A stretch of 64,000 nucleotides of DNA from Nanobdellota archaeon (lineage in GTDB: Archaea; Nanobdellota; Nanobdellia; Parvarchaeales; Parvarchaeaceae): positions 4,498-68,497 of the forward strand of contig JAJZBD010000005.1 of assembly GCA_021799085.1 (NCBI GenBank). Direction: 5' to 3'. Made by a program: the position numbers and the translations under genes. Shown piece by piece: positions 4,795 through 61,430 of this stretch; position 1 is the stretch's first letter, and the number at the start of each line of letters is the position of its first letter. The notes beneath the pieces were generated by a model that made no database searches, was not told where the DNA came from, and was given only the letters and a program-made list of their open reading frames with translations.

Positions 4795-5325
4795 TTAAGT
4801 GAATATTTTATACTTATCCTTATTTTCGAGTTCTTCTTCTATTCTTGCTTCTATGCTTTTTGCTATGCCCGATGTAAAACCCACTCTTTCATCAAAATCA
4901 CTGTAGGATTTGAATTCTCCCTTATTCCGTTCTTCTATGATTTTCTGTACCATTTTTTTACCAGCACCAGGTATAAGTGACAATGAATGCAGTCTTACGT
5001 TTATAGGCCCCAACCTATTTATTATTGATATGTAATTTGCCTCATTCTGGCTTACAATCTCATGCACCTTATCCGTGAGCATTTGAAGGCCATTTCCATT
5101 TAGTTTATCAGGGGTTATCCTTTGTATTATATGGTGTACTTCATCCCTTTTGTTTTCTCCTATGTAGACTTTCATTCCCGGTTCTACTTTTACGTCTTTT
5201 TTGAGGGCCACAAGCAATAATCCAAGTGAATCTGTAAGAACTATTGCAGTAGCTTTCCTATCCTTTGAATCTTGCAGACCAAAGGGAAGGTATTCTAAAA
5301 CATAAGCGTATTCGTCTTTTCCCAT
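4795..5325 (-). CDS. DUF655-family nucleic-acid-binding protein (conserved neighbour of rpoF)
   Basis: 176 aa; position downstream of L21e-RpoF as in many archaea; HhH-like GAGKKM segment. Confidence 0.55.
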   Translation of the reverse strand: MGKDEYAYVLEYLPFGLQDSKDRKATAIVLTDSLGLLLVALKKDVKVEPGMKVYIGENKRDEVHHIIQRITPDKLNGNGLQMLTDKVHEIVSQNEANYISIINRLGPINVRLHSLSLIPGAGKKMVQKIIEERNKGEFKSYSDFDERVGFTSGIAKSIEARIEEELENKDKYKIFT

Positions 5326-32698: not shown

Positions 32699-33109
32699 TC
32701 AGGCTTTATTGTCTTGACCGCTTAATACTTCTCCTTTTTCAACCTTTACGAAATCAGGCACTACCAAGAGGTAATCCTCATCTACGCCTATTATCTGGGC
32801 CTCTGCAGCATCTGCACTTTTCTTTAATTTGGAAATCGTTCTTTTTAATTCGTCTACTCCGCCTTTTTCACGTATCTCCTTAACCTTTATGAAAGATAAA
32901 GTATAACCAGAACGGATGTCATTTAATATGGCACTGGCATCTTCAAATTTATTAAGATTATAGTATTTCACATATATCTTAGCCATCGGCTTATCGCCTT
33001 GTTCAACCTCCAGTTCAACGTAGTCGCTGCCCTGACTAGAGGAATCCACATTTACATTCTTCTTGAATATATTCAAGAAATTATCAAACGGAAGATTTAC
33101 CATGTTCAC
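32699..33109 (-). CDS. SepF-like (DUF552) cell-division protein
   Basis: 136 aa; C-terminal ...YNLNKFEDASAILNDIRSGYTLSFIKV...IIGVDEDYLLVVPDFVKV resembles SepF core. Confidence 0.4.
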   Translation of the reverse strand: MNMVNLPFDNFLNIFKKNVNVDSSSQGSDYVELEVEQGDKPMAKIYVKYYNLNKFEDASAILNDIRSGYTLSFIKVKEIREKGGVDELKRTISKLKKSADAAEAQIIGVDEDYLLVVPDFVKVEKGEVLSGQDNKA

Positions 33110-33290: not shown

Positions 33291-33746
33291 TTATTTTTTG
33301 ATTCTTTTAATGTCAACTACATCTCCAAATGACAGCTGCTCTGTGTCTTTTTTGAAAGTTGAGTCGGAAACAAAATTCATTTCATACAAGGATATGTTAA
33401 GTAATCTTTCAAGCCACACCGTTATTTTTTCATCCGGCAATATTTCGCCGTTAACTACCTTTTTCAGGTCTTTGGGAGAACAGTTTATCTTTTCTGCTAC
33501 CTCTTCAATTGAAAGCCCGCTTTCCTGCAATGAATGCTTTATTTCATTTAAATAATCATATTTCAACTGCCTTTCACTTTCCACAGTTCTCTGTACTTGT
33601 TTACTCGACTGAACATCTGTTCCAATTACCCTGCCATATTTTGAACAGTTTTTACAAAGGTTCATTACTGCCCCTTCTACTTCGGTCTTTAAAAGGTTCT
33701 CTTCAAACGCACCACATATCTCGCAATTCATTTTATAACACCTCAA
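33291..33746 (-). CDS. archaeal multiprotein-bridging factor 1 (aMBF1): N-terminal zinc ribbon + C-terminal XRE-type HTH
   Basis: CEICG...(17)...CKNCSKYG zinc ribbon; HTH LSIEEVAEKINCSPKDLKKVVNGEILP. Confidence 0.65.
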   Translation of the reverse strand: MRCYKMNCEICGAFEENLLKTEVEGAVMNLCKNCSKYGRVIGTDVQSSKQVQRTVESERQLKYDYLNEIKHSLQESGLSIEEVAEKINCSPKDLKKVVNGEILPDEKITVWLERLLNISLYEMNFVSDSTFKKDTEQLSFGDVVDIKRIKK

Positions 33747-35370: not shown

Positions 35371-36897
35371 TTAAAACTCACCAAAGACCCTGGCAGATTC
35401 TATCTCTCTTAGGAGATCTAAGTCTGTATATGCGCCGTAAAGATCCCTAATATCCGCCATGCCAAGTTTTAGATTCAACATTCTTTCCATTCCAAAACCC
35501 CATGCCACTATGTTTTTGTTTATACCAAAGGGTTTAAGGGTTTCTGGTCTAAATACGCCCGAATTCCCCACTTCAAGCCACCTTTTAAGCTTGGGACTGA
35601 AAGCTTGTATCTCCAGACTGGGTTCTGTATAAGGATTGTAGGTCGGTTTAAGCCTTATTTTTTCTATCCCTATTTTTTTGTAGAATTGTTTTATGTAACC
35701 AATGAGATCAGAGACGGAAAGGTTGTCATCGTATACGACTCCCTCTATCTGATAAAGCTCCAGCAGATGGGTATTGTCCATTGTTTCATTCCTAAATCCT
35801 TTGTCAACTGAAAAAAACTTTGCAGGCTTATCCTTGTTTTTTGATATAAATTCATAGATATATCTAAAAGTTGTTGCGGTAGTATGCCCACGCATTATAA
35901 GCGAATCGCTCTTAGATTTATCAAACTTTCTCCTATATCCTATAGATTCATTGTACTTGGAAGAAAAAAACCCGTGCTCATAAACCTGCTTTACATTTTT
36001 GAGAAGCTTTGCCGGTATAACGGCCTTTCCTCCATTTAAGTAAACCGTGTCCTGTATGTCCCTATCAGGGTGATCTTGTCTGAACATCATAACATCAAAA
36101 TTCCAAAAGGTTGACTCAACGTAATTGCTGTGCATTTCAGAGAAGCCCATTGAAACCATTGCATCTTTTATCAATGAGATAAATTTGGTCTTCACATTCA
36201 TTTTGCCGGATAAAGAATCGAGTATCTCGGGCTTTTCGCTGTATTCCCTAAATCTCAACCCACTCCAATTTTTAATATTATTTGGAGAAAGTTTGTCTAT
36301 ATACTCTGCTTTGAATTCACTGTTTTTTAGCAATTTTATTCCTGCCGGAGTTATGGAGAATTTTTCCCTTATTTCGTTTACCTGCTCGATTATCCCGCGT
36401 CTTATAAGATCTGCTGTACCATCATAGTTTACATTCTGTTCTTTCTCCACTATTTGCAAAACTCTATTCTGCTCTTCGACTTTTGCAGATTTATCTGGAT
36501 TTACGGTTATTTTGCCGCCTTCGATATTTATTGCAAGCATTCTTTTTAGCACACCTATGGCTGCATTTAGCTCATCTTTTTCCATTGGAACGCTGGAAAA
36601 AAGCTGCTTATATTCCACCGTTTTATTGCGTTTTAGAAATTCGAATACATTGTATTCGGGAAGACCTTCCTTCAGATATTTATGCCCAAGGGAGGTAAGT
36701 CTGGTAGTATTTGCAGTTATGTTATCAATTTTTATCAAGCCCAAAGAAAAAAGTTTTCTTGCCGAGTTTATTACTGCCGCTCTCTCCAAGGCGTATTTTA
36801 GCTCTAATTCGCTTGAAAACATTTCCCCTTTTTCAAGAGCAGATAGAACAATCTTGTCAGTCTTGCTCAGCATTCTTATAATATCTTCTCCTTCCAT
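35371..36897 (-). CDS. pheS: phenylalanyl-tRNA synthetase alpha subunit
   Basis: 508 aa; class II motifs incl. FRPETLKPFGI... and GFGMERMLNLKLG (motif 3). Confidence 0.85.
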   Translation of the reverse strand: MEGEDIIRMLSKTDKIVLSALEKGEMFSSELELKYALERAAVINSARKLFSLGLIKIDNITANTTRLTSLGHKYLKEGLPEYNVFEFLKRNKTVEYKQLFSSVPMEKDELNAAIGVLKRMLAINIEGGKITVNPDKSAKVEEQNRVLQIVEKEQNVNYDGTADLIRRGIIEQVNEIREKFSITPAGIKLLKNSEFKAEYIDKLSPNNIKNWSGLRFREYSEKPEILDSLSGKMNVKTKFISLIKDAMVSMGFSEMHSNYVESTFWNFDVMMFRQDHPDRDIQDTVYLNGGKAVIPAKLLKNVKQVYEHGFFSSKYNESIGYRRKFDKSKSDSLIMRGHTTATTFRYIYEFISKNKDKPAKFFSVDKGFRNETMDNTHLLELYQIEGVVYDDNLSVSDLIGYIKQFYKKIGIEKIRLKPTYNPYTEPSLEIQAFSPKLKRWLEVGNSGVFRPETLKPFGINKNIVAWGFGMERMLNLKLGMADIRDLYGAYTDLDLLREIESARVFGEF

Positions 36898-36924: not shown

Positions 36925-38298
36925 TTAAAAGGTTTTAATTAAGCCTTTTTCAACAATCTTTTTGGCAAGGTAAGGTCCGGAGGCATAAAGTCCTGAGAAC
37001 TTTGATTCTATTAACCCCCCATATATAGCTTCGTTCACAGGAAATGTTACAGAGAACATCGGATTGAAGCTGTAATTGAACGATTCCTTTACAAAACGCG
37101 GAAGATTTAATTTCTCGAGTTCAGAAAGAAAATCTGTATTGGACTTAAATTTTCTAGCGAGGGCAGAAATTGCCGATTCTAGCCTGTTAACTGAAAGGAA
37201 AAGGTCATAGCCTTCTAATGGAAAATCATTCTTCATAGAATCCATGGCCTTTTCGGCATAGTAGCTTGCCATTTGCTCTGTAGTTGCGCCTGCTCCATGC
37301 GCTAACTCATGAAAAAGCGCAAAAAGATACTCTGGGACGGCATTTAATCTTTCTGTGTTCAGGAAAACCGGGCTGTATGAATTCTTTTTTATAAGCTTGC
37401 CCAAAAGCGAATTATAAATCAAAGTAAATCCGCCAACGCCCTTTGGAGAGTGATGAATGATCAACTTGTAATTTATCCTTTTTTTAAGTACATTAGAAAT
37501 GTAGGGTAGCATTGATTTTTCATATTTTCTTAAGCTTTCCTCTGAACCGCTTGCACTAGCATATGCCCTGCTAGAAGACAGCATGTAAATTGCATTTATG
37601 TTCTCTAAAGACGGTTCTATCTTCGAGCTAAATAACGCTTTATTGTAATGTTCAAATGTTTTCTTGAATTCTCTGCTGTACTTTTTAATGTCATCTTCTA
37701 TTTCTTCTATCGTCAGTTTTTTAGGGTTGAATAGCCTAGAAGTTCCCCCCACTATAAAAGCAATTGACAAAGCAGATATCAATCCAGTTATTATTGGCAC
37801 CTGTACAAGGGATGGCCAATTTACCATGAATTCCTCGGCAAAAAGGCTTGCAAATGGAAGGTGCAGTGAATATGAGAAATACACTGTTTCGCCAATAAAT
37901 GTCGCAAGCCCGGCGACGCCCCCGATGAGCGTTCCCATCGAAGTTGTTGATATAAAGTGACTGTTTGTCTTCCCTAGAATATAATCGTATGCTTTTGCAA
38001 CAAATTTTGCAGGAGACAAAAGTATTCTTGATAAAATGTGCTTCTGTTTAATATCTGGATTATTTATATAGTCATTGCTGCCATAATCATCCCAGTAATC
38101 AAGAACACTCCTTAAGTACCTTTCCAAACCCTCTTTGCCGTATTTTTGGTATATAAAATCTTTTTTAAGTTTTTTGACGGCATTTACTGTAGATTTGTCT
38201 GTGTTGTCTTTTAATATGCGGTTTATGGACTTGTTATCGCCCGAGTCTAGACTTGATAAAATAGAATACAGTTTCGACCTGTTTTCAACAGAGCCCAT
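36925..38298 (-). CDS. hypothetical membrane-associated protein with HExxH motif
   Basis: 457 aa; cytoplasmic N-domain, 2-3 central TM helices, C-domain with ALFHELAHGAG. Confidence 0.35.
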   Translation of the reverse strand: MGSVENRSKLYSILSSLDSGDNKSINRILKDNTDKSTVNAVKKLKKDFIYQKYGKEGLERYLRSVLDYWDDYGSNDYINNPDIKQKHILSRILLSPAKFVAKAYDYILGKTNSHFISTTSMGTLIGGVAGLATFIGETVYFSYSLHLPFASLFAEEFMVNWPSLVQVPIITGLISALSIAFIVGGTSRLFNPKKLTIEEIEDDIKKYSREFKKTFEHYNKALFSSKIEPSLENINAIYMLSSSRAYASASGSEESLRKYEKSMLPYISNVLKKRINYKLIIHHSPKGVGGFTLIYNSLLGKLIKKNSYSPVFLNTERLNAVPEYLFALFHELAHGAGATTEQMASYYAEKAMDSMKNDFPLEGYDLFLSVNRLESAISALARKFKSNTDFLSELEKLNLPRFVKESFNYSFNPMFSVTFPVNEAIYGGLIESKFSGLYASGPYLAKKIVEKGLIKTF

Positions 38299-48117: not shown

Positions 48118-48585
48118 ATGGACAATAAAGGAAATAAAAAATTAAGGGAAAGACTGTTCAGAGACCGGCCATTGAGCGGTATATCATTAAATGAATTTGA
48201 AAGGCCGACAAATGATTACAATACTAACTTAAGGAGATTCTGCATCTCATTGGGGCTTATAAGCCCCGGAGAAAGCAGGATAGCGATAGTATATCTGCTT
48301 GACATACTGCTTAAGGCAAGGAAAAAGAGGCCGGATGGTTTGGATAGCTATGAAATAATTAAGGAACTTTACAAGAGAAAAGTAAAGATAGTTTATGCAA
48401 ACATACTCAGAGATCTAAGAAAGCTAATAGCTGTAGGATTGGTTGAAAAAAGGAACAGCCTTTATAGAATAAAGGAAAACATGAAACTCAATGAAATAAT
48501 ATCTAGTTTTATAAAGCCGTACATAATAGATAGAATGCTGAGCAAAATAGAGGAATACGCTAAATCGATAGACAAAGCAGATTAA
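48118..48585 (+). CDS. hypothetical winged-helix-like protein
   Basis: 155 aa; basic/helical, possible wHTH around IAIVYLLDILLKARKKRPDGLDSYEI. Confidence 0.3.
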   Translation: MDNKGNKKLRERLFRDRPLSGISLNEFERPTNDYNTNLRRFCISLGLISPGESRIAIVYLLDILLKARKKRPDGLDSYEIIKELYKRKVKIVYANILRDLRKLIAVGLVEKRNSLYRIKENMKLNEIISSFIKPYIIDRMLSKIEEYAKSIDKAD

Positions 48586-49755: not shown

Positions 49756-50223
49756 TTATTTTTGTGAGCCAAATTCTTTAATGAGCCTTTTACTGAATTC
49801 TTCCATTATTCTAAGCAGGTATTCTGTTTCCGGGCTCTTAATATCTGATAAAACTCTTATGACCCCTCCCTTACTTGAATTTTCTATTTTAGGTAAATCC
49901 ACAGAAACGAAATCTAAGATAACATTTACAACCTTGATTAAGGACTCCCATTGGATACTGGATATTTTATTCTGTAGTTCATCAAAATCTATATTATCGG
50001 ATATTTTGCTTAATATCGGGAGCAATTTTACAAATGCAGAAAATGCACCAAGGATAGTCATCGTTGTAGCATAATTAAAGATATTGTCTGACTGCTCTGA
50101 AATTGCATCGACGGCCCCCATTAAGCCTGATTCTTGTAGTTTTTTTAGAGAATTAATTGTAGGTTCCAAATCATTTAATTCATCTAATAAGTGTTCAATC
50201 TTGCCTATATTTTTACTGTCCAT
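49756..50223 (-). CDS. DUF1641-family protein (SQR-associated)
   Basis: Start tentatively at MDSKNIG (ATG 50221..50223); typical partner of SQR-type flavoproteins; overlaps SQR stop. Confidence 0.5.
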   Translation of the reverse strand: MDSKNIGKIEHLLDELNDLEPTINSLKKLQESGLMGAVDAISEQSDNIFNYATTMTILGAFSAFVKLLPILSKISDNIDFDELQNKISSIQWESLIKVVNVILDFVSVDLPKIENSSKGGVIRVLSDIKSPETEYLLRIMEEFSKRLIKEFGSQK

Positions 50224-51394
50224 AATACCAGCCCCCATAAACATTTGCCAGAAAGTATTTCTCATATATAGCATGAGCAAACTTAAGCATCTTATCCGGA
50301 GGTACAAGCCTGCAATCTGGAAATAAAGTGTCTGGTTTAGTCAACTTATCACCAAAATCACAGTATGCAAACATGCCCGCATCACCGGTATCACCTGCAC
50401 AAAGACCTACTGTATTGTATGGAATTGGAGCATGTATCCCCATTACATCACCTGCGATAAGAGATGCAACAGTATCTGCTTGAAAATGAGCGAAAACACC
50501 TGCCATACCTAAACCAACTGTTGGTGCAATAGAATCTCCAAGTCCATAAATATCATCAAATTTACTGTTTCTAAAGTTTTTTATGTTTGAATCAAGCCAA
50601 CCTTGCTTAGATAAAAGGTCCGGATTTTTAGCTATAAAATCCTGTGGTTTATGGGGTGGTGCGATTATTGCAAGATCATAGTCTATAGTTTCATTAGCTT
50701 CTCCAATTATTTTTTTATTTTCGCCATCGATATTTTTAGGATTAAAATTATTCACTGTGTGGATATCTCTCTCTTCAAACCACTTTGTAACTGGATTTGA
50801 TAGAACGGGACCAAACATTTCAAATGGTTTACTAGCAAAATGTGCTACGGTTATATTTACCTTATCGCGCATTCCTTTGTTTCTAAAATAATCATCAAGA
50901 ATCATGGCCATTTCCCAAGGGACCGGTGGGCATTTATATACCTTTGTAGTAACTCCAATAACAATGTTGCCACCTTTGAAAGTAGAAAGTTTGCTCCTTA
51001 AAGATATAGCCCCTTCTAAATCCCAAAATTGCTCTACATTGTTGTAACCAGGAAAAGATTGCTTATCAAACTTAACGCCAGGTGAAAGCACAAGAATGTC
51101 ATATGGTATTTTTTGACTAGAAAGTACAACATTACGGTTTGCAGCGTCTACATCTGTTACTTCTCCTTTTATTGGTTTTATCCCTCTCTTATAAAAATTT
51201 GAAATGTCTGTGCTTATTTGCTCAGGCAACCTGCTACCAATAGAAACGAGAGTTTGAGAAGGCTGAAAAACGGTTTTACCATATTTATCTATGATAGTTA
51301 TATGTGCTTTATCTTCAGGGATTAATCTTCTTAATTTACTAGCAACTAATCCGCCACCAGCTCCTGCACCAACTATGACAATTTCTTTCGTCAT
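50213..51394 (-). CDS. FAD-dependent pyridine nucleotide-disulfide oxidoreductase, sulfide:quinone oxidoreductase (SQR)-like
   Basis: 393 aa; IVIVGAGAGG FAD motif, second dinucleotide-binding region, Cys residues in C-terminal part; DUF1641 neighbour. Confidence 0.6.
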   Translation of the reverse strand: MTKEIVIVGAGAGGGLVASKLRRLIPEDKAHITIIDKYGKTVFQPSQTLVSIGSRLPEQISTDISNFYKRGIKPIKGEVTDVDAANRNVVLSSQKIPYDILVLSPGVKFDKQSFPGYNNVEQFWDLEGAISLRSKLSTFKGGNIVIGVTTKVYKCPPVPWEMAMILDDYFRNKGMRDKVNITVAHFASKPFEMFGPVLSNPVTKWFEERDIHTVNNFNPKNIDGENKKIIGEANETIDYDLAIIAPPHKPQDFIAKNPDLLSKQGWLDSNIKNFRNSKFDDIYGLGDSIAPTVGLGMAGVFAHFQADTVASLIAGDVMGIHAPIPYNTVGLCAGDTGDAGMFAYCDFGDKLTKPDTLFPDCRLVPPDKMLKFAHAIYEKYFLANVYGGWYYGQ

Positions 51395-51447
51395 ATAAAT
51401 TTATAATATTATAAATATTTAATATAATATAAACACTAAGTTAAAAA

Positions 51448-58857: not shown

Positions 58858-58956
58858 TGGCCTGGCCGAGATTTGGACTCGGGACCCCTGCTTTTCCTAA
58901 AATGTTGGAGCATACTCATATAAGAGCAGTGCTCTACCGGGCTAAGCTACCAGGCC
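58858..58956 (-). tRNA. tRNA-Ile, anticodon read as UAU, with ~25-nt intron (approx 58894..58918)
   Basis: Acceptor GGCCTGG/CCAGGCC, T-arm CCGAG-TCCAAAT-CTCGG. Anticodon stem CTGCT...AGCAG separated by 32 nt; every splice choice I tried gives TAT at 34-36. Confidence 0.6.
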
Positions 58957-59006
58957 ACAATGACTACTTTAATAGATACTTCAAATATTTATAATTACCT
59001 GATAGT

Positions 59007-59480
59007 TTAAATGTATTCTTTAACTGCACTGCCAGCAATGGCTTTCACAGACAGCTTTTTCACAGAAAATTCAAGTGCTTCTCCAAGAACCGGAACTTCA
59101 TAGAATCCTGCTTCTGTGCCCCTGAAACCATAACTTTCTTCAAGCTCTTTCTTGATTTTATTGACCTTATCTGCCTGATAACCATAGTTCAACAGTATCT
59201 CAATGTTTCCCTTTCCGCTGCTCTTGTAATCCCTAAAAGCGCCTTTAATAATCGAATAAACCACTCTTCTAAGCTTGTTGTCGTTTTCAAAGTACTTTGG
59301 ATTTATGCAATATTTTACTGAACTGCCAAAAGAAAACTTGGCGTATTTTCTATTGATACTTACCGAGTCATTGCCGCTTCTTTTAGCGGCAGTTAGCAGC
59401 AGATCGTATAGAGAATTGTCCAACCCCATGATTGCACTTCCACCTGAATTCATTAAAAGATCCTTTAATCGCTGTTCCAT
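59007..59480 (-). CDS. hypothetical protein (third gene of RHH/PAPS-reductase-like operon)
   Basis: 157 aa, no motif; start 1 nt after upstream stop. Confidence 0.3.
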   Translation of the reverse strand: MEQRLKDLLMNSGGSAIMGLDNSLYDLLLTAAKRSGNDSVSINRKYAKFSFGSSVKYCINPKYFENDNKLRRVVYSIIKGAFRDYKSSGKGNIEILLNYGYQADKVNKIKKELEESYGFRGTEAGFYEVPVLGEALEFSVKKLSVKAIAGSAVKEYI

Positions 59481-59481
59481 C

Positions 59482-60312
59482 TTACATGTAGCCGAAAAGC
59501 CTGAGTTTTTCCATTACTCCTTCCTTGTCCTGTGATCTGCCTGCTCTTTCTTTTGTATGCTCTAAGTCCTGTTCCCATGCAGGCAAATCGCTTGTCTTCT
59601 TTGAATCCAATTTACCATCTATTGACCTATATCCGAGCTTGTACAAAGGATGCATTGGCAATTTGTACTTGAAAATATATCCCCAAACGTTCCTTTCAGT
59701 AAAAGGCAGTATCGGCTGTACCCTTACATGATCCGGATGCGTTCTCGGGCTTATGAAAACCTCCATAGACCTTGCTTCATTTTCATCCCACCTAACACCA
59801 GTAAATAGCGCATCGAACCTGTACTTTTCGATTGCCATGTTCATCGCAACTGTTTTCAATAAATGGTTTCCGACCTCTGTTTCTAAGCTGTAATCAAACT
59901 CTTCTCCGTTGAATCCTATTCTTCTAGCTTCATCCTGGTTAACCTTGTTAAGACTGCTGAGCTTTATTTTGTTGTCCTTCCCTACATTTTTTATAACGTC
60001 CTCATTCTTTGCATATACCATCTTAAAGCCCCATTCATTGCTTATGTCTTCAAGCATCTTCATGGTTTCATCGTAATGCTGTCCGTGGTCTATAAATAAT
60101 GCAGGAGGCAACTGCATCCCCAAATCCTTACATGCCCGTCTTACAAGGTCCAAAACCACTGTGCTGTCTTTTCCAGCACTCCAAACAACCGTAGGCCGGT
60201 TGTATCTTTTCAATGCATCCTTTATTACTATAAGCGCAATTTCTTCCTTTGCTTCTAAACTCAACCCACCTTCTATTCTTTGTTTTTTTACAGAATATTG
60301 TTCATTTTCCAT
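59482..60312 (-). CDS. PAPS-reductase-family PP-loop protein (Cys-less variant)
   Basis: VVWSAGKDSTVVLDLV PP-loop; ...HPLYKLGYRSIDG corresponds to the PAPS-reductase PLxxWxxxDVWxYI/GYxSIGC region but lacks the Cys; ends ...MEKLRLFGYM. Confidence 0.55.
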   Translation of the reverse strand: MENEQYSVKKQRIEGGLSLEAKEEIALIVIKDALKRYNRPTVVWSAGKDSTVVLDLVRRACKDLGMQLPPALFIDHGQHYDETMKMLEDISNEWGFKMVYAKNEDVIKNVGKDNKIKLSSLNKVNQDEARRIGFNGEEFDYSLETEVGNHLLKTVAMNMAIEKYRFDALFTGVRWDENEARSMEVFISPRTHPDHVRVQPILPFTERNVWGYIFKYKLPMHPLYKLGYRSIDGKLDSKKTSDLPAWEQDLEHTKERAGRSQDKEGVMEKLRLFGYM

Positions 60313-60321
60313 GTTTACCTC

Positions 60322-60543
60322 CTACATATAACCCAGTTTCCTGAGCTTATCCTCAAGATCAAGCACCCGCTCGTCTTTTTCTTCCCTTCTCTTTTTTTCT
60401 TCGTTGCTTTCCGAGACCAGCTCTCTAAGCAGGTATTCTACAAAGCTTGAAAGCGATGTGAAACCCGTTTTCTCTATAAGCTTTTTGGCCTTATCAGCCA
60501 AAGGCTTAGGTATCGAAACCGTTGTAAATTTTTGTTCATCCAT
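60322..60543 (-). CDS. ribbon-helix-helix (CopG/Arc-like) DNA-binding protein
   Basis: 73 aa; TTVSIPKPLADKAKKLIEKTGFTSLSSFVEYLLRELV = beta-strand + two helices; ends ...LEDKLRKLGYM. Confidence 0.55.
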   Translation of the reverse strand: MDEQKFTTVSIPKPLADKAKKLIEKTGFTSLSSFVEYLLRELVSESNEEKKRREEKDERVLDLEDKLRKLGYM

Positions 60544-60546
60544 AAT

Positions 60547-60574
60547 TACTAATAATTATATATAATTATTAGTA
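60547..60574. promoter_or_regulatory. 28-bp perfect palindrome TACTAATAATTATATATAATTATTAGTA immediately upstream of the RHH gene start; candidate operator overlapping TATA box
   Basis: Read directly from sequence; reverse complement identical; centre TATATATA 4-30 nt upstream of the RHH ATG (60543). Confidence 0.45.
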
Positions 60575-60615
60575 TAAATACTTTTCCTTTTAAAAAATAG
60601 CGAAATAAAAAATGA

Positions 60616-60945
60616 TTACATTGAAAACAGAATAAAACCTAGAACAATCAGTGGCAATGCAATTGCATCGCCGTAGAACCCTGAGATGTAAGTACCTTGT
60701 ATAAACGAAGATGTAACCAATGCCGGATTCAAAACATACTGAACCAATGTAGCTATATAGCTGGCTGAAATAGCGAGCATTCCTGCAAATATAATAATCA
60801 AACCAATTACCTTCTTCTTCGGATTTGCAAAAAATAGAACCAAAAACCGTTCCATCTTTCGCATGTTAAAATAGAACATAAAGAAGGTAAGTACCCACGC
60901 GGCTGCAATTAAAAGCGCAATAGGAAGCGGAATGCTGAAACTCAT
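60616..60945 (-). CDS. small hypothetical membrane protein
   Basis: 109 aa, 3 TM helices; start overlaps (ATGA) stop of upstream gene. Confidence 0.3.
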   Translation of the reverse strand: MSFSIPLPIALLIAAAWVLTFFMFYFNMRKMERFLVLFFANPKKKVIGLIIIFAGMLAISASYIATLVQYVLNPALVTSSFIQGTYISGFYGDAIALPLIVLGFILFSM

Positions 60946-61430
60946 GAGAACCTCCGAAAGTAATTAAAGTAAAGATCATATGAAAAACCCGCCACCAAAA
61001 GAGATAAAATAGCTAGAAGCCAAAAGGCTGCAACTAAACCATACGCTAGAAATATCTGTGTAACCGCATTTACTGCAAAAACCACCGTAGCCAAGAAGCC
61101 GAATAGAAGCAGAATCTCTATTCTCTTAATAAAAACCTTAGACCGCCCTTTATTCAGAAAAAAACCGGCCCATGGAGCCCTATCCTTTGCATGCTTAGCA
61201 TTGACAAGTAATATCAATGCTATAAAAATAACTGTCACTAATGCGCCTATCAAAGTTACTACCCTTGCAGTTATCAATGCAATTTCAACGAAGTATGTAA
61301 AACTGACGATGGTTATTGGCTTGAATACAACTGAGAAAGACGCGCCTATATCTCCGCCTATAGCTATGACCGCAATTATGCTTACTATTATAAGAACAAT
61401 CAAATTAAGCTTTGTTTGATTAAACTGCAT
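60942..61430 (-). CDS. hypothetical membrane protein
   Basis: 162 aa, 4 TM helices. Confidence 0.3.
   Translation of the reverse strand: MQFNQTKLNLIVLIIVSIIAVIAIGGDIGASFSVVFKPITIVSFTYFVEIALITARVVTLIGALVTVIFIALILLVNAKHAKDRAPWAGFFLNKGRSKVFIKRIEILLLFGFLATVVFAVNAVTQIFLAYGLVAAFWLLAILSLLVAGFSYDLYFNYFRRFS

What the first reader, a model, noticed from the sequence alone, without database searches (positions are those of the whole stretch)
60547..60574. 28-bp perfect palindrome over the RHH gene promoter
TACTAATAATTATATATAATTATTAGTA equals its own reverse complement. It is centred ~17 nt upstream of the RHH ATG, with a TATATATA core where an archaeal TATA box would sit. RHH dimers typically bind inverted repeats, so this looks like an autoregulatory operator. 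Perfect palindromes of this length are rare even in AT-rich DNA.
Basis: seen in the sequence. Interest (0 to 1): 0.5.

Follow-up and report, generated by a model that had tools for sequence, protein, structure and literature searches.

The report
Operator array of sulfate-cluster RHH repressor
The 28-base palindrome is real and non-random, but it is one strain's extra-symmetric version of a conserved row of three TAATTA boxes that most likely forms the binding site through which a small ribbon-helix-helix protein shuts off its own sulfate-activation operon, an ordinary kind of switch for a protein family nobody has characterised.

Summary
Observation confirmed. TACTAATAATTATATATAATTATTAGTA at 60547-60574 is a perfect 14+14 palindrome, the longest in the window. 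None of 900 composition-matched simulations reached even a 12-nt arm.

Interpretation partly supported. The 73-aa gene (60322-60543, minus strand) belongs to a large, mostly archaeal family with weak but consistent ribbon-helix-helix (RHH) signals. In 69 of 76 orthologous loci from many phyla, the 90 nt upstream hold TAATTA boxes at a 10-bp period. Other upstream regions in the same loci show this in 3 of 257 cases.

The conserved unit is the box array, not the palindrome. The window has three boxes at 60563-68, 60553-58 and 60543-48, the last overlapping the ATG. Relatives keep only 9-13 of the 14 pairs. The central TATATATA is a variable spacer. The conserved BRE/TATA (AAAAGTATTTATA, 60573-60585) lies just distal to the array.

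Genes downstream of the orthologues are almost always sulfate-activation genes: CysD-like here, ATP sulfurylase, CysD or APS kinase elsewhere.

Best model: RHH dimers bind in tandem between the TATA box and the start codon and repress the RHH/CysD-like operon. Binding is untested and the effector is unknown. This is a new member of a known kind.

The parts
60547..60574 (.). 28-bp perfect palindrome (the finding). It spans the last 2 nt of box 3, spacer CTAA, box 2, spacer TATA, box 1, spacer TTAG and the first 2 nt of the TATA box.
60563..60568 (.). TAATTA box 1, distal, 25 nt before the ATG. Nearly invariant in Parvarchaeota promoters.
60553..60558 (.). TAATTA box 2, 15 nt before the ATG. Invariant in 25 aligned Parvarchaeota promoters.
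60543..60548 (.). TAATTA box 3, 5 nt before the ATG. Its last base is the A of the ATG (TAATTATG on the minus strand). Invariant. It covers the predicted transcription start.
60573..60578 (-). Predicted TATA box, TTTATA on the minus strand, starting 35 nt before the ATG and in 10-bp register with the boxes. T.TATA is invariant in relatives.
   Evidence: invariant columns; TATA-to-ATG geometry of other genes in the window; assignment inferred
60579..60585 (-). BRE-like purine-rich stretch, AAAAGTA on the minus strand, immediately upstream of the TATA box and conserved in relatives.
   Evidence: role inferred from the established archaeal promoter layout
60592..60612 (-). Two T6 runs on the minus strand (A6 at 60592-60597 and 60607-60612 on +), just after the stop of the upstream membrane-protein ORF. 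These are oligo-T archaeal termination signals, so the RHH gene probably has its own promoter.
   Evidence: inference
60322..60543 (-). 73-aa RHH-type protein, the predicted repressor. It has FTTVSIPKPL (strand), a TGFTSLSSFVEYLLRE helix, a charged linker, and the conserved tail KLRKLGYM.
59482..60312 (-). 276-aa CysD-like PAPS_reduct-domain protein, 9 nt after the RHH stop. Predicted co-transcribed target.
59007..59480 (-). 157-aa ORF with no family match, starting 1 nt after the CysD-like stop. Fast evolving and found only in the ARMAN-4/5 clade. Probably the third gene of the operon.

Best explanation
The palindrome is part of the operator of the adjacent 73-aa ribbon-helix-helix protein. 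The operator is a tandem array of a self-complementary 10-bp unit with consensus T-R-TAATTA-Y-A. The window has three TAATTA boxes, centre to centre 10 bp apart, and therefore on one face of the helix. The array fills the interval between the TATA box (TTTATA, 60573-60578) and the ATG (60543), and covers the predicted start of a leaderless or nearly leaderless transcript. One RHH dimer would insert its two-stranded sheet into the major groove at each palindromic box, with neighbouring dimers binding cooperatively. Occupancy would block TFB and RNA polymerase recruitment and so repress the RHH / CysD-like / 157-aa operon, giving negative autoregulation. Because a palindromic unit repeated in tandem is palindromic about both box centres and spacer centres, long palindromes arise easily. 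This strain's 28-mer is the case in which the variable distal spacer (CTAA) happens to complement the proximal one (TTAG). Shown here: the sequence, its non-randomness, the conservation of the boxes, and their exclusive association with this gene family. Inferred: that the RHH is the binding protein, the stoichiometry, and the direction (repression). Unknown: the effector, presumably a signal of sulfur or PAPS status.
For: (1) TAATTA-N4-TAATTA (1 mismatch or fewer) occurs within 90 nt upstream of 69 of 76 orthologues from Parvarchaeota, Thermoplasmatota, Hadarchaeota, Bathyarchaeia, Thermofilaceae, Iainarchaeota, Micrarchaeota and others. That is 131 hits in 7.3 kb against 12 in 347 kb elsewhere in the same loci. 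It is found in 3 of 257 other upstream regions, in 2 of 61 with A+T of 0.70 or more, and in a mean of 1.3 of 76 shuffled regions. (2) The boxes are in 10-bp register: at least 2 consecutive in 71 of 76 loci, at least 3 in 50 of 76, and up to 6. (3) The position matrix from 246 units gives T.98 A.96 A.96 T.93 T.86 A.99, with weaker symmetric flanks. (4) In an alignment of 25 Parvarchaeota promoters, only the TATA box and the boxes are invariant, while the spacers and everything upstream vary. (5) The same TATA + 3 boxes + ATG module also precedes a neighbouring Na+/H+ exchanger gene in L028, so it behaves as a portable operator. (6) In two Chloroflexota loci the boxes travel with the RHH gene and overlap the -10 hexamer of a 12/12 sigma-70 consensus promoter. 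The cognate factor must therefore have moved with them, and steric occlusion works with either transcription machinery. (7) The protein strand FTTVSIP and the following helices are invariant across the family, matching the invariance of the box. (8) RHH-type signals: NikR RHH domain E 0.029 by profile; RHH_1 E 0.005, CcdA E 0.002; NikR and CdrS models; a predicted extended N-terminus plus helix 13-24 and helix 31-70; and Foldseek top hits that are all RHH proteins. (9) Other genes in the window have TTTATA-type boxes starting 27-35 nt before their ATG, which fits the TATA assignment.
Against: There is no experimental binding, transcription-start or expression data. Every sequence match to RHH families is below the curated threshold: RHH_1 scores 17.1 against 20.5 bits, and only 6 of 37 members hit RHH_1 at E<0.01. 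The model is of moderate confidence (pLDDT 73), and the Foldseek E-values are about 1. Seven of 76 orthologues lack a clear box pair. No second site exists in the 64-kb window. The TATA box and transcription start are assigned by geometry and conservation only. A separate factor encoded elsewhere cannot be formally excluded.
Confidence: 0.72

Rival explanations
1. The 28-bp palindrome as a whole is the functional operator, recognised as two 14-bp half-sites (TACTAATAATTATA) by an RHH dimer or tetramer, and its TATATATA core is the TATA box, so that the repressor competes with TBP.
For: Perfect symmetry that chance does not give. RHH proteins do bind inverted repeats (established knowledge).
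Against: The outer arms are not conserved. Relatives have 9-13 of 14 pairs, and the distal spacer differs in almost every lineage. The invariant third box lies outside the palindrome. Other lineages have 26-bp perfect palindromes centred on a box instead of a spacer (L025, L033). The central spacer is variable and sits only 17.5 nt from the ATG. An invariant TTTATA lies distal to the array.
Confidence: 0.08
2. The TAATTA array is a real operator, but it is bound by a different DNA-binding protein encoded elsewhere. The small protein would have another role, for example as an antitoxin-like or enzyme-associated partner.
For: The RHH assignment is sub-threshold. The protein's C-terminal tail resembles that of the CysD-like enzyme, which could indicate a protein-protein role.
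Against: The array tracks this gene across many archaeal phyla, whatever the downstream gene is, and into bacterial genomes. No other conserved neighbour with a DNA-binding domain was seen. All fold and profile hints point to RHH DNA-binding domains.
Confidence: 0.1
3. The boxes act positively. The bound RHH recruits or stabilises TBP/TFB, or the array is a structural, bent A+T-rich promoter element, rather than a repressor site.
For: The TATA box is in 10-bp register with the boxes. Some archaeal regulators activate.
Against: The array lies downstream of the TATA box and over the start site and ATG, which is the position used by archaeal repressors (established knowledge for MDR1, LrpA and Phr). 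In the bacterial loci it overlaps the -10 hexamer, which is a repressing position.
Confidence: 0.07
4. The palindrome acts as a nucleic-acid structure (RNA hairpin terminator for the upstream genes, or DNA cruciform), or it is a chance product of A+T-rich intergenic DNA.
For: It lies 40 nt after the stop of the upstream ORF. A 12-bp A-U stem is predicted.
Against: Folding energy is not unusual: z = -1.56, and 14 of 200 shuffles fold as well. There is no Rfam match. Archaeal termination uses oligo-T, and two T6 runs precede the palindrome. Chance is excluded by simulation and by conservation.
Confidence: 0.03

Closest known systems
Arc and Mnt repressors of phage P22 and CopG of plasmid pMV158 (Arc/MetJ/CopG RHH superfamily)
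   Same: Proteins of similar small size with a predicted strand-helix-helix core. They are encoded directly behind their operator, which has symmetric subsites about one helical turn apart lying over the promoter. Negative autoregulation by cooperative dimer-dimer binding is the textbook behaviour of this group (established knowledge).
   Different: Sequence similarity is below family thresholds. The box TAATTA and the strict 10-bp tandem array of 2-6 boxes are specific to this family. The protein has a roughly 30-residue charged helix and a conserved LRxLGY tail. The setting is an archaeal TATA/BRE promoter with a leaderless transcript, and a chromosomal metabolic operon rather than a phage or plasmid.
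MetJ with tandem metboxes, and the omega repressor with heptad arrays
   Same: RHH repressors that read variable numbers of short tandem repeats, with occupancy and cooperativity scaling with repeat number. MetJ controls sulfur amino-acid metabolism.
   Different: The period is 8 bp (MetJ) or 7 bp (omega) against 10 bp here. Each unit here is itself palindromic. No SAM-type corepressor site is evident, and there is no detectable sequence relationship.
NikR, N-terminal RHH domain (e.g. Pyrococcus horikoshii, PDB 2bj1)
   Same: Best solved-structure sequence match: E 0.029 over 41 residues, [35 protein letters not shown] against vSiPkpLadkvkkliektGFtSlSsfVeYvLRei.
   Different: NikR carries a C-terminal metal-binding domain of about 80 residues and binds two half-sites separated by a long spacer. 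This protein has only a helix plus a short tail.
'Putative copG transcription factor' of archaeal sulfate-assimilation clusters (PYCH_17520 of Pyrococcus yayanosii; clusters in T. onnurineus, F. placidus, A. boonei, A. pernix)
   Same: A small CopG-type gene at the head of a cluster with ATP sulfurylase, APS kinase, pAp phosphatase and a type I phosphodiesterase, said to 'potentially regulate' the pathway (PMC8268124). The orthologues found here precede the same kinds of genes.
   Different: That paper gives no operator, no binding data and no family analysis. I could not retrieve PYCH_17520, so orthology with the window protein is untested. In the window the target is a CysD-like protein in a DPANN genome, not a Sat/CysC cluster.

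Membership tests
Ribbon-helix-helix (Arc/MetJ/CopG) DNA-binding proteins | Sequence match to a curated RHH family model at its threshold | tested here: not met
   RHH_1 scores 17.1 bits against a cut-off of 20.5 (E 0.005); CcdA scores 18.7 against 22.4. Only 6 of 37 family members hit RHH_1 at E<0.01. The NikR and CdrS NCBIfam models are far below their cut-offs. The hits are consistent in kind but all sub-threshold.
Ribbon-helix-helix (Arc/MetJ/CopG) DNA-binding proteins | Strand-helix-helix topology, with a short N-terminal strand of alternating polar residues and a G-x-S/T start to helix B | tested here: inconclusive
   The AF2 monomer has residues 6-12 extended, helix 13-24, a loop containing the invariant TGFTS, and helix 31-70, at pLDDT 73. 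The Foldseek top hits are RHH proteins (PrpA, ParD, Reg576, pCXC100 ParB) with TM 0.5-0.7 to the target but E about 1. The profile matches the NikR RHH domain at E 0.029.
Ribbon-helix-helix (Arc/MetJ/CopG) DNA-binding proteins | Obligate dimer forming an antiparallel two-stranded sheet that enters the major groove | not testable with these tools
   Only monomer prediction was available.
Ribbon-helix-helix (Arc/MetJ/CopG) DNA-binding proteins | Operator of symmetric or tandem short repeats at its own promoter | tested here: met
   Arrays of TAATTA at a 10-bp period upstream of 69 of 76 orthologues, against 3 of 257 controls. Three boxes in the window. Binding itself is not shown.
Archaeal TATA/BRE promoter with a repressor site downstream of the TATA box | A conserved A+T-rich TATA element preceded by a purine-rich BRE, about 25-27 nt before the transcript start | tested here: inconclusive
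   AAAAGTATTTATA is conserved at a fixed distance in 25 promoters. TTTATA starts 35 nt before the ATG, and other window genes have it at 27-35 nt. The transcription start is not mapped.
Archaeal sulfate-activation (PAPS) gene clusters headed by a CopG-type gene (PMC8268124) | A regulator gene immediately upstream of ATP sulfurylase, CysD, APS kinase or related genes | tested here: met
   Downstream genes of the orthologues: 32 Sat, 28 CysD-like, 3 CysD, at least 2 cut CysD-like, 2 APS kinase, plus TauE, a sulfotransferase and a type I phosphodiesterase. In the window it is CysD-like: PAPS_reduct E 7e-32, best NCBIfam CysD subfamily at 111 bits, below its cut-off of 195.
Archaeal sulfate-activation (PAPS) gene clusters headed by a CopG-type gene (PMC8268124) | Orthology of the window protein to the published example PYCH_17520 | not tested
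   The sequence could not be retrieved with these tools. The profile search listed only metagenomic members with generic names.

The most novel reading that the evidence does not exclude
This small protein family has at least 6,383 clusters at 90% identity and spans DPANN, Thermoplasmatota, Thermoproteota, Asgard and some Chloroflexota. It may be the general, so far uncharacterised, transcriptional switch for sulfate activation and PAPS synthesis in archaea, reading a domain-wide conserved TAATTA/10-bp code. Its invariant C-terminal tail (K/R)LRxLGY(M/L) is shared with the extreme C-terminus of the CysD-like enzymes it controls. That tail could be the sensor, either mimicking the enzyme's tail to dock on a common partner or ligand, or letting the enzyme act as co-repressor or anti-repressor.
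Probability: 0.15. Interest if true: 0.65.

Novelty: new member of a known kind. Interest (0 to 1): 0.45.

Why it matters
The regulation of sulfate activation in archaea is essentially undescribed. [quoted passage not shown] The comparative result gives a concrete and cheaply testable pairing: one 70-80-aa protein family and one short DNA code (TAATTA at a 10-bp period). The pairing is conserved from genome-reduced acid-mine DPANN archaea to Thermoplasmatota, Hadarchaeota and Bathyarchaeia, and has been carried into bacteria. It would allow regulon prediction in thousands of uncultured genomes, and it offers a compact repressor/operator pair for archaeal genetics. As biology, however, it is the expected behaviour of an RHH autorepressor, not a new principle.

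Tried and rejected
(1) Regulon search in the window. The half-site at up to 3 mismatches and TAATTA-N4-TAATTA at up to 2 mismatches gave no more hits than shuffles outside the site itself.

(2) Same-species contigs L001-L008 are 100% identical over the promoter and carry no information.

(3) A metagenome scan with GTATTTATA-N4-TAATTA-N4-TAATTA returned 32 stretches. Only 3 were RHH promoters; the rest were chance hits in unrelated A+T-rich DNA.

(4) The RNA-structure and terminator reading was rejected. Folding is not better than shuffles and there is no Rfam family.

(5) The central TATATATA as TATA box was rejected on conservation and geometry.

(6) Six of the ten allowed literature searches, covering RHH or CopG with sulfate genes, and TAATTA with archaeal RHH, found no characterised member or operator. 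The only find was the 'putative copG' remark.

(7) The top PDB sequence hit, 8fjf 'H10', matches only a 24-residue helix repeated three times. I disregarded it as uninformative.

(8) Background box pairs in L066, L017 and L010 were inspected or listed. The L066 pair lies between convergent gene ends, and none was convincing as an operator.

Full report
**1. The observation**

The + strand at 60547-60574 reads TACTAATAATTATATATAATTATTAGTA. It is its own reverse complement: two 14-nt arms, 100% complementary, no spacer. The flanking pair 60546/60575 is T/T, so 28 bp is the full extent.

It lies in a 72-bp intergenic spacer (60544-60615) between two minus-strand ORFs:
- the stop of a 109-aa membrane protein (60616-60945);
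- the ATG (60543) of a 73-aa ORF (60322-60543).

It is the longest perfect palindrome in the window; the runners-up are 20, 18 and 16 bp. In 900 simulated sequences no arm exceeded 11 nt. The simulations used Markov order 1 trained on the window, and orders 1 and 3 trained on about 7.5 kb of intergenic-like DNA.

**2. The organism and the gene**

The 73-aa protein is 90% identical to BJBARM4_0181 of Candidatus Parvarchaeum acidiphilum ARMAN-4. Identical copies occur in acid-mine-type metagenome assemblies. The window is therefore from an ARMAN-4-like DPANN archaeon (37% G+C).

Matches to RHH models are consistent in kind, but all are sub-threshold:
- Pfam RHH_1 at 17.1 bits against a cut-off of 20.5, and CcdA at 18.7;
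- NCBIfam NikR and CdrS;
- a family profile against PDB sequences, which finds the RHH domain of P. horikoshii NikR at E 0.029 over 41 residues;
- only 6 of 37 members reach RHH_1 at E<0.01.

An AlphaFold2 model built from 37 homologues (pLDDT 73) shows an extended N-terminus, helix 13-24, a loop with the invariant TGFTS, and a long helix 31-70. Its best Foldseek matches in the PDB are all RHH proteins (PrpA, ParD1/2, Reg576, pCXC100 ParB), with E about 1 as expected for so short a chain. I accept 'RHH-type' as the best reading, but it is not a demonstrated membership.

The family is large: at least 6,383 clusters at 90% identity with E of 1e-5 or better. Members carry only generic names such as 'CopG family' or 'Arc/MetJ-type'. 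Invariant residues include FTTVSIP..L, TGFTS.S, R40 and a C-terminal L..LGY.

**3. Comparative test of the operator idea**

Same-species contigs are identical and uninformative. A scan of one genome per GTDB species gave 266 confirmed relatives, of which 80 loci were kept. I located starts for 76 of them and read the 100 nt upstream.

Almost all contain TAATTA boxes at a 10-bp period:
- Parvarchaeota: GTAATTATATATAATTATTAGTAATTATG;
- Thermoplasmatota: TAATTACATATAACTAAATATAATGATATATAATTATATTTAATTAGGTG;
- Hadarchaeota, Bathyarchaeia, Thermofilaceae, Iainarchaeota, Micrarchaeota and Woesearchaeota: TTAATTAAATATAATTAA and variants.

The numbers for TAATTA-N4-TAATTA with 1 mismatch or fewer are:

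| Region tested | Result |
|---|---|
| 90 nt upstream of orthologues | 69 of 76 loci; 131 hits in 7.3 kb |
| Rest of the same loci | 12 hits in 347 kb |
| Upstream regions of other genes | 3 of 257 |
| Those with A+T of 0.70 or more | 2 of 61 |
| Shuffled RHH upstream regions | mean 1.3 of 76, maximum 6 |

The boxes are in register. At least 2 consecutive boxes occur in 71 of 76 loci, at least 3 in 50 of 76, and up to 6. A matrix from 246 units gives T.98 A.96 A.96 T.93 T.86 A.99, with weaker symmetric flanks (-2 T .63, -1 A/G, +6 T/A, +7 A .66). This is a self-complementary 10-mer, T-R-TAATTA-Y-A.

**4. Anatomy in the window**

Read on the minus strand, the spacer is:

stop - T6 - T6 - GGAAAAGTA - TTTATA - CTAA - TAATTA - TATA - TAATTA - TTAG - TAATTA-TG.

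On the + strand the boxes are at 60563-68, 60553-58 and 60543-48. The last base of the third box is the A of the ATG.

In an alignment of 25 Parvarchaeota promoters, including ARMAN-4 and ARMAN-5, the invariant columns are T.TATA of the TATA box and boxes 2 and 3. Box 1 is nearly invariant. The spacers and everything further upstream vary.

Other genes in the window have a TTTATA-type element starting 27-35 nt before their ATG and no Shine-Dalgarno sequence, which implies leaderless mRNAs. The RHH gene's TTTATA starts at -35. With the usual archaeal spacing, the transcript would start about 5-8 nt before the ATG, inside or next to box 3.

The central TATATATA is simply the spacer TATA plus box edges. 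Relatives have CTAA, CTTA, TCTA, CTAT or CATA there. It is also too close to the ATG to serve as this gene's TATA box.

**5. Why a perfect 28-mer here**

About the same centre, relatives keep 9-13 of the 14 pairs. The closest relative (L009, 97% identical protein) has 13. L013, L015 and L017 have 12, because their distal spacer is TTAG, a direct repeat of the proximal one, rather than CTAA.

Other lineages have perfect 24-26-bp palindromes centred on the middle box instead:
- L025: TAATTACTTATAATTATAAGTAATTA;
- L033: TAATTACATATAATTATATGTAATTA;
- L021: 24 bp.

A tandem array of a palindromic 10-mer is automatically near-palindromic about every box centre and every spacer centre. With the TATA box, two boxes, the TATA spacer and the proximal TTAG fixed, only the four distal spacer bases have to fit. 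The perfect 28-mer is thus a by-product of the array, found in one strain. It is not the selected unit.

**6. What the operator controls**

Nine nucleotides after the RHH stop begins a 276-aa PAPS_reduct-domain protein. Pfam gives E 7e-32. The best NCBIfam model is the CysD subfamily at 111 bits, below its cut-off of 195, so I call it 'CysD-like'. It is followed after 1 nt by a 157-aa ORF with no family match. That ORF is fast evolving and restricted to the ARMAN-4/5 clade.

Across the 74 orthologous loci with a downstream ORF, the next gene is:
- ATP sulfurylase, 32 loci;
- CysD-like, 28 loci;
- bona fide CysD, 3 loci;
- truncated CysD-like, at least 2 loci;
- APS kinase, 2 loci;
- a TauE/SafE exporter, a sulfotransferase, and a type I phosphodiesterase, one each.

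The family is therefore tied to sulfate activation and PAPS metabolism. One paper notes a 'putative copG transcription factor' at the head of the ATP sulfurylase / pAp phosphatase / phosphodiesterase / APS kinase cluster in Pyrococcus yayanosii and other archaea, which 'potentially regulates' it. It gives no operator or binding data (PMC8268124; see also PMC4463584). I could not retrieve that protein to test orthology. Other searches found nothing on such a regulator or on TAATTA operators.

**7.

This step is inferred. Four observations support it.
- The array follows the gene regardless of which enzyme lies downstream and across phyla.
- In L028 a second TATA + three-box + ATG module precedes the neighbouring Na+/H+ exchanger gene, so the module is portable.
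- In two Chloroflexota loci (L058, L085) the RHH gene has boxes that overlap the -10 hexamer of a 12/12 consensus sigma-70 promoter. Whatever reads the boxes crossed the domain boundary together with them.
- The predicted DNA-reading strand and the box are both invariant.

**8. Mechanism**

The best-supported model has these steps. One RHH dimer binds per palindromic box. Dimers sit 10 bp apart on one face of the DNA and bind cooperatively, perhaps through the long charged helix. The occupied array between the TATA box and +1/ATG prevents TFB and RNA polymerase recruitment. The result is negative autoregulation of the RHH / CysD-like / 157-aa operon. The position downstream of the TATA box is that used by characterised archaeal repressors (established knowledge for MDR1, LrpA and Phr). 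The effector is unknown.

Rivals are scored in the rival-explanations section: the literal 28-mer operator, a different reader protein, activation, and a nucleic-acid structure or chance. The structure reading is disfavoured by an unremarkable folding energy (z -1.56), by the absence of any Rfam family, and by the two T6 runs that already provide archaeal termination signals for the upstream genes.

**9. Verdict**

The finding is real, and the operator interpretation is right in spirit. Three corrections apply:
- the functional unit is a three-box TAATTA array that extends beyond the palindrome to the ATG;
- the TATA box is the adjacent conserved TTTATA, not the palindrome core;
- the perfect symmetry is strain-specific.

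In kind this is a standard RHH autorepressor and operator. Its value is that it defines the DNA code and the likely regulon theme (sulfate activation) of a very large, uncharacterised, mainly archaeal regulator family.

Noticed in passing
window 60322-60351 (RHH C-terminus) and 59482-59511 (CysD-like C-terminus); loci L009-L088: The RHH protein ends ...EDKLRKLGYM and the CysD-like enzyme it precedes ends ...MEKLRLFGYM. A 12-residue HMM of RHH tails, searched against 1,047 ORFs from the 76 loci, picked out the extreme C-termini of 33 CysD-type ORFs (31 of 255-320 aa plus two truncated copies) and almost nothing else. Individual E-values are weak (0.001-1.2). The tail is also conserved in lineages where the downstream gene is ATP sulfurylase, which lacks it. 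Two Iainarchaeota/Micrarchaeota APS kinases end ...RERGYL. The function is unknown.
   Followed up: partly
L028 310-353: A second TATA + three TAATTA boxes + ATG module (GGTATTTATAATGGTAATTATAAGTAATTACTTATAATTATATG) lies directly upstream of a 421-aa Na+/H+ exchanger-family gene, next to the RHH gene of a Parvarchaeota MAG. It may be a regulon member outside sulfate activation.
   Followed up: partly
L058 2406-2435 and L085 2413-2441: Two Chloroflexota (bacterial) genomes carry the same RHH family with TAATTA boxes overlapping the -10 hexamer of perfect 12/12 sigma-70 consensus promoters. They are followed by TauE or CysD-like genes, which suggests inter-domain transfer of the regulator together with its operator.
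   Followed up: partly
window 51399-51416: An 18-bp perfect palindrome, ATTTATAATATTATAAAT, lies 5 nt upstream of the ATG of a 393-aa sulfide:quinone-oxidoreductase-like gene (50213-51394, minus; Pyr_redox_2 + FCSD_central). The region has three TTTATA repeats. It could be another operator on a sulfur-metabolism gene, but it is not of the TAATTA type.
   Followed up: no
window 58858-58956 (minus): Rfam finds a tRNA (53 bits, full model) spread over 99 nt, but ARAGORN reports none. It is probably an intron-containing archaeal tRNA. A TATA-like TTATAAATA lies about 28 nt upstream (58982-58997).
   Followed up: no
window 33060-33079 and 48252-48267: A 20-bp perfect palindrome, TTCTTGAATATATTCAAGAA, lies inside the 5' part of a SepF-like ORF (32699-33103, minus). 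A 16-bp G+C-ended palindrome, GGGGCTTATAAGCCCC, lies inside ORF 48118-48585. Neither is explained.
   Followed up: no
window 59007-59480 (minus): The 157-aa ORF after the CysD-like gene has no Pfam or NCBIfam match. It evolves much faster than its neighbours: 37-83% identity where the CysD-like protein keeps 87-98%. It was detectable only in the ARMAN-4/5 clade.
   Followed up: partly
window, upstream regions of many genes (for example 4795-5325, 35371-36897, 36925-38298, 60942-61430): TTTATA-type boxes start 27-35 nt before the annotated ATG, with no Shine-Dalgarno sequence, so transcripts in this genome are probably mostly leaderless. A few genes (for example 32699-33103 and 33291-33731) instead have GAGGTG before the ATG.
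   Followed up: partly
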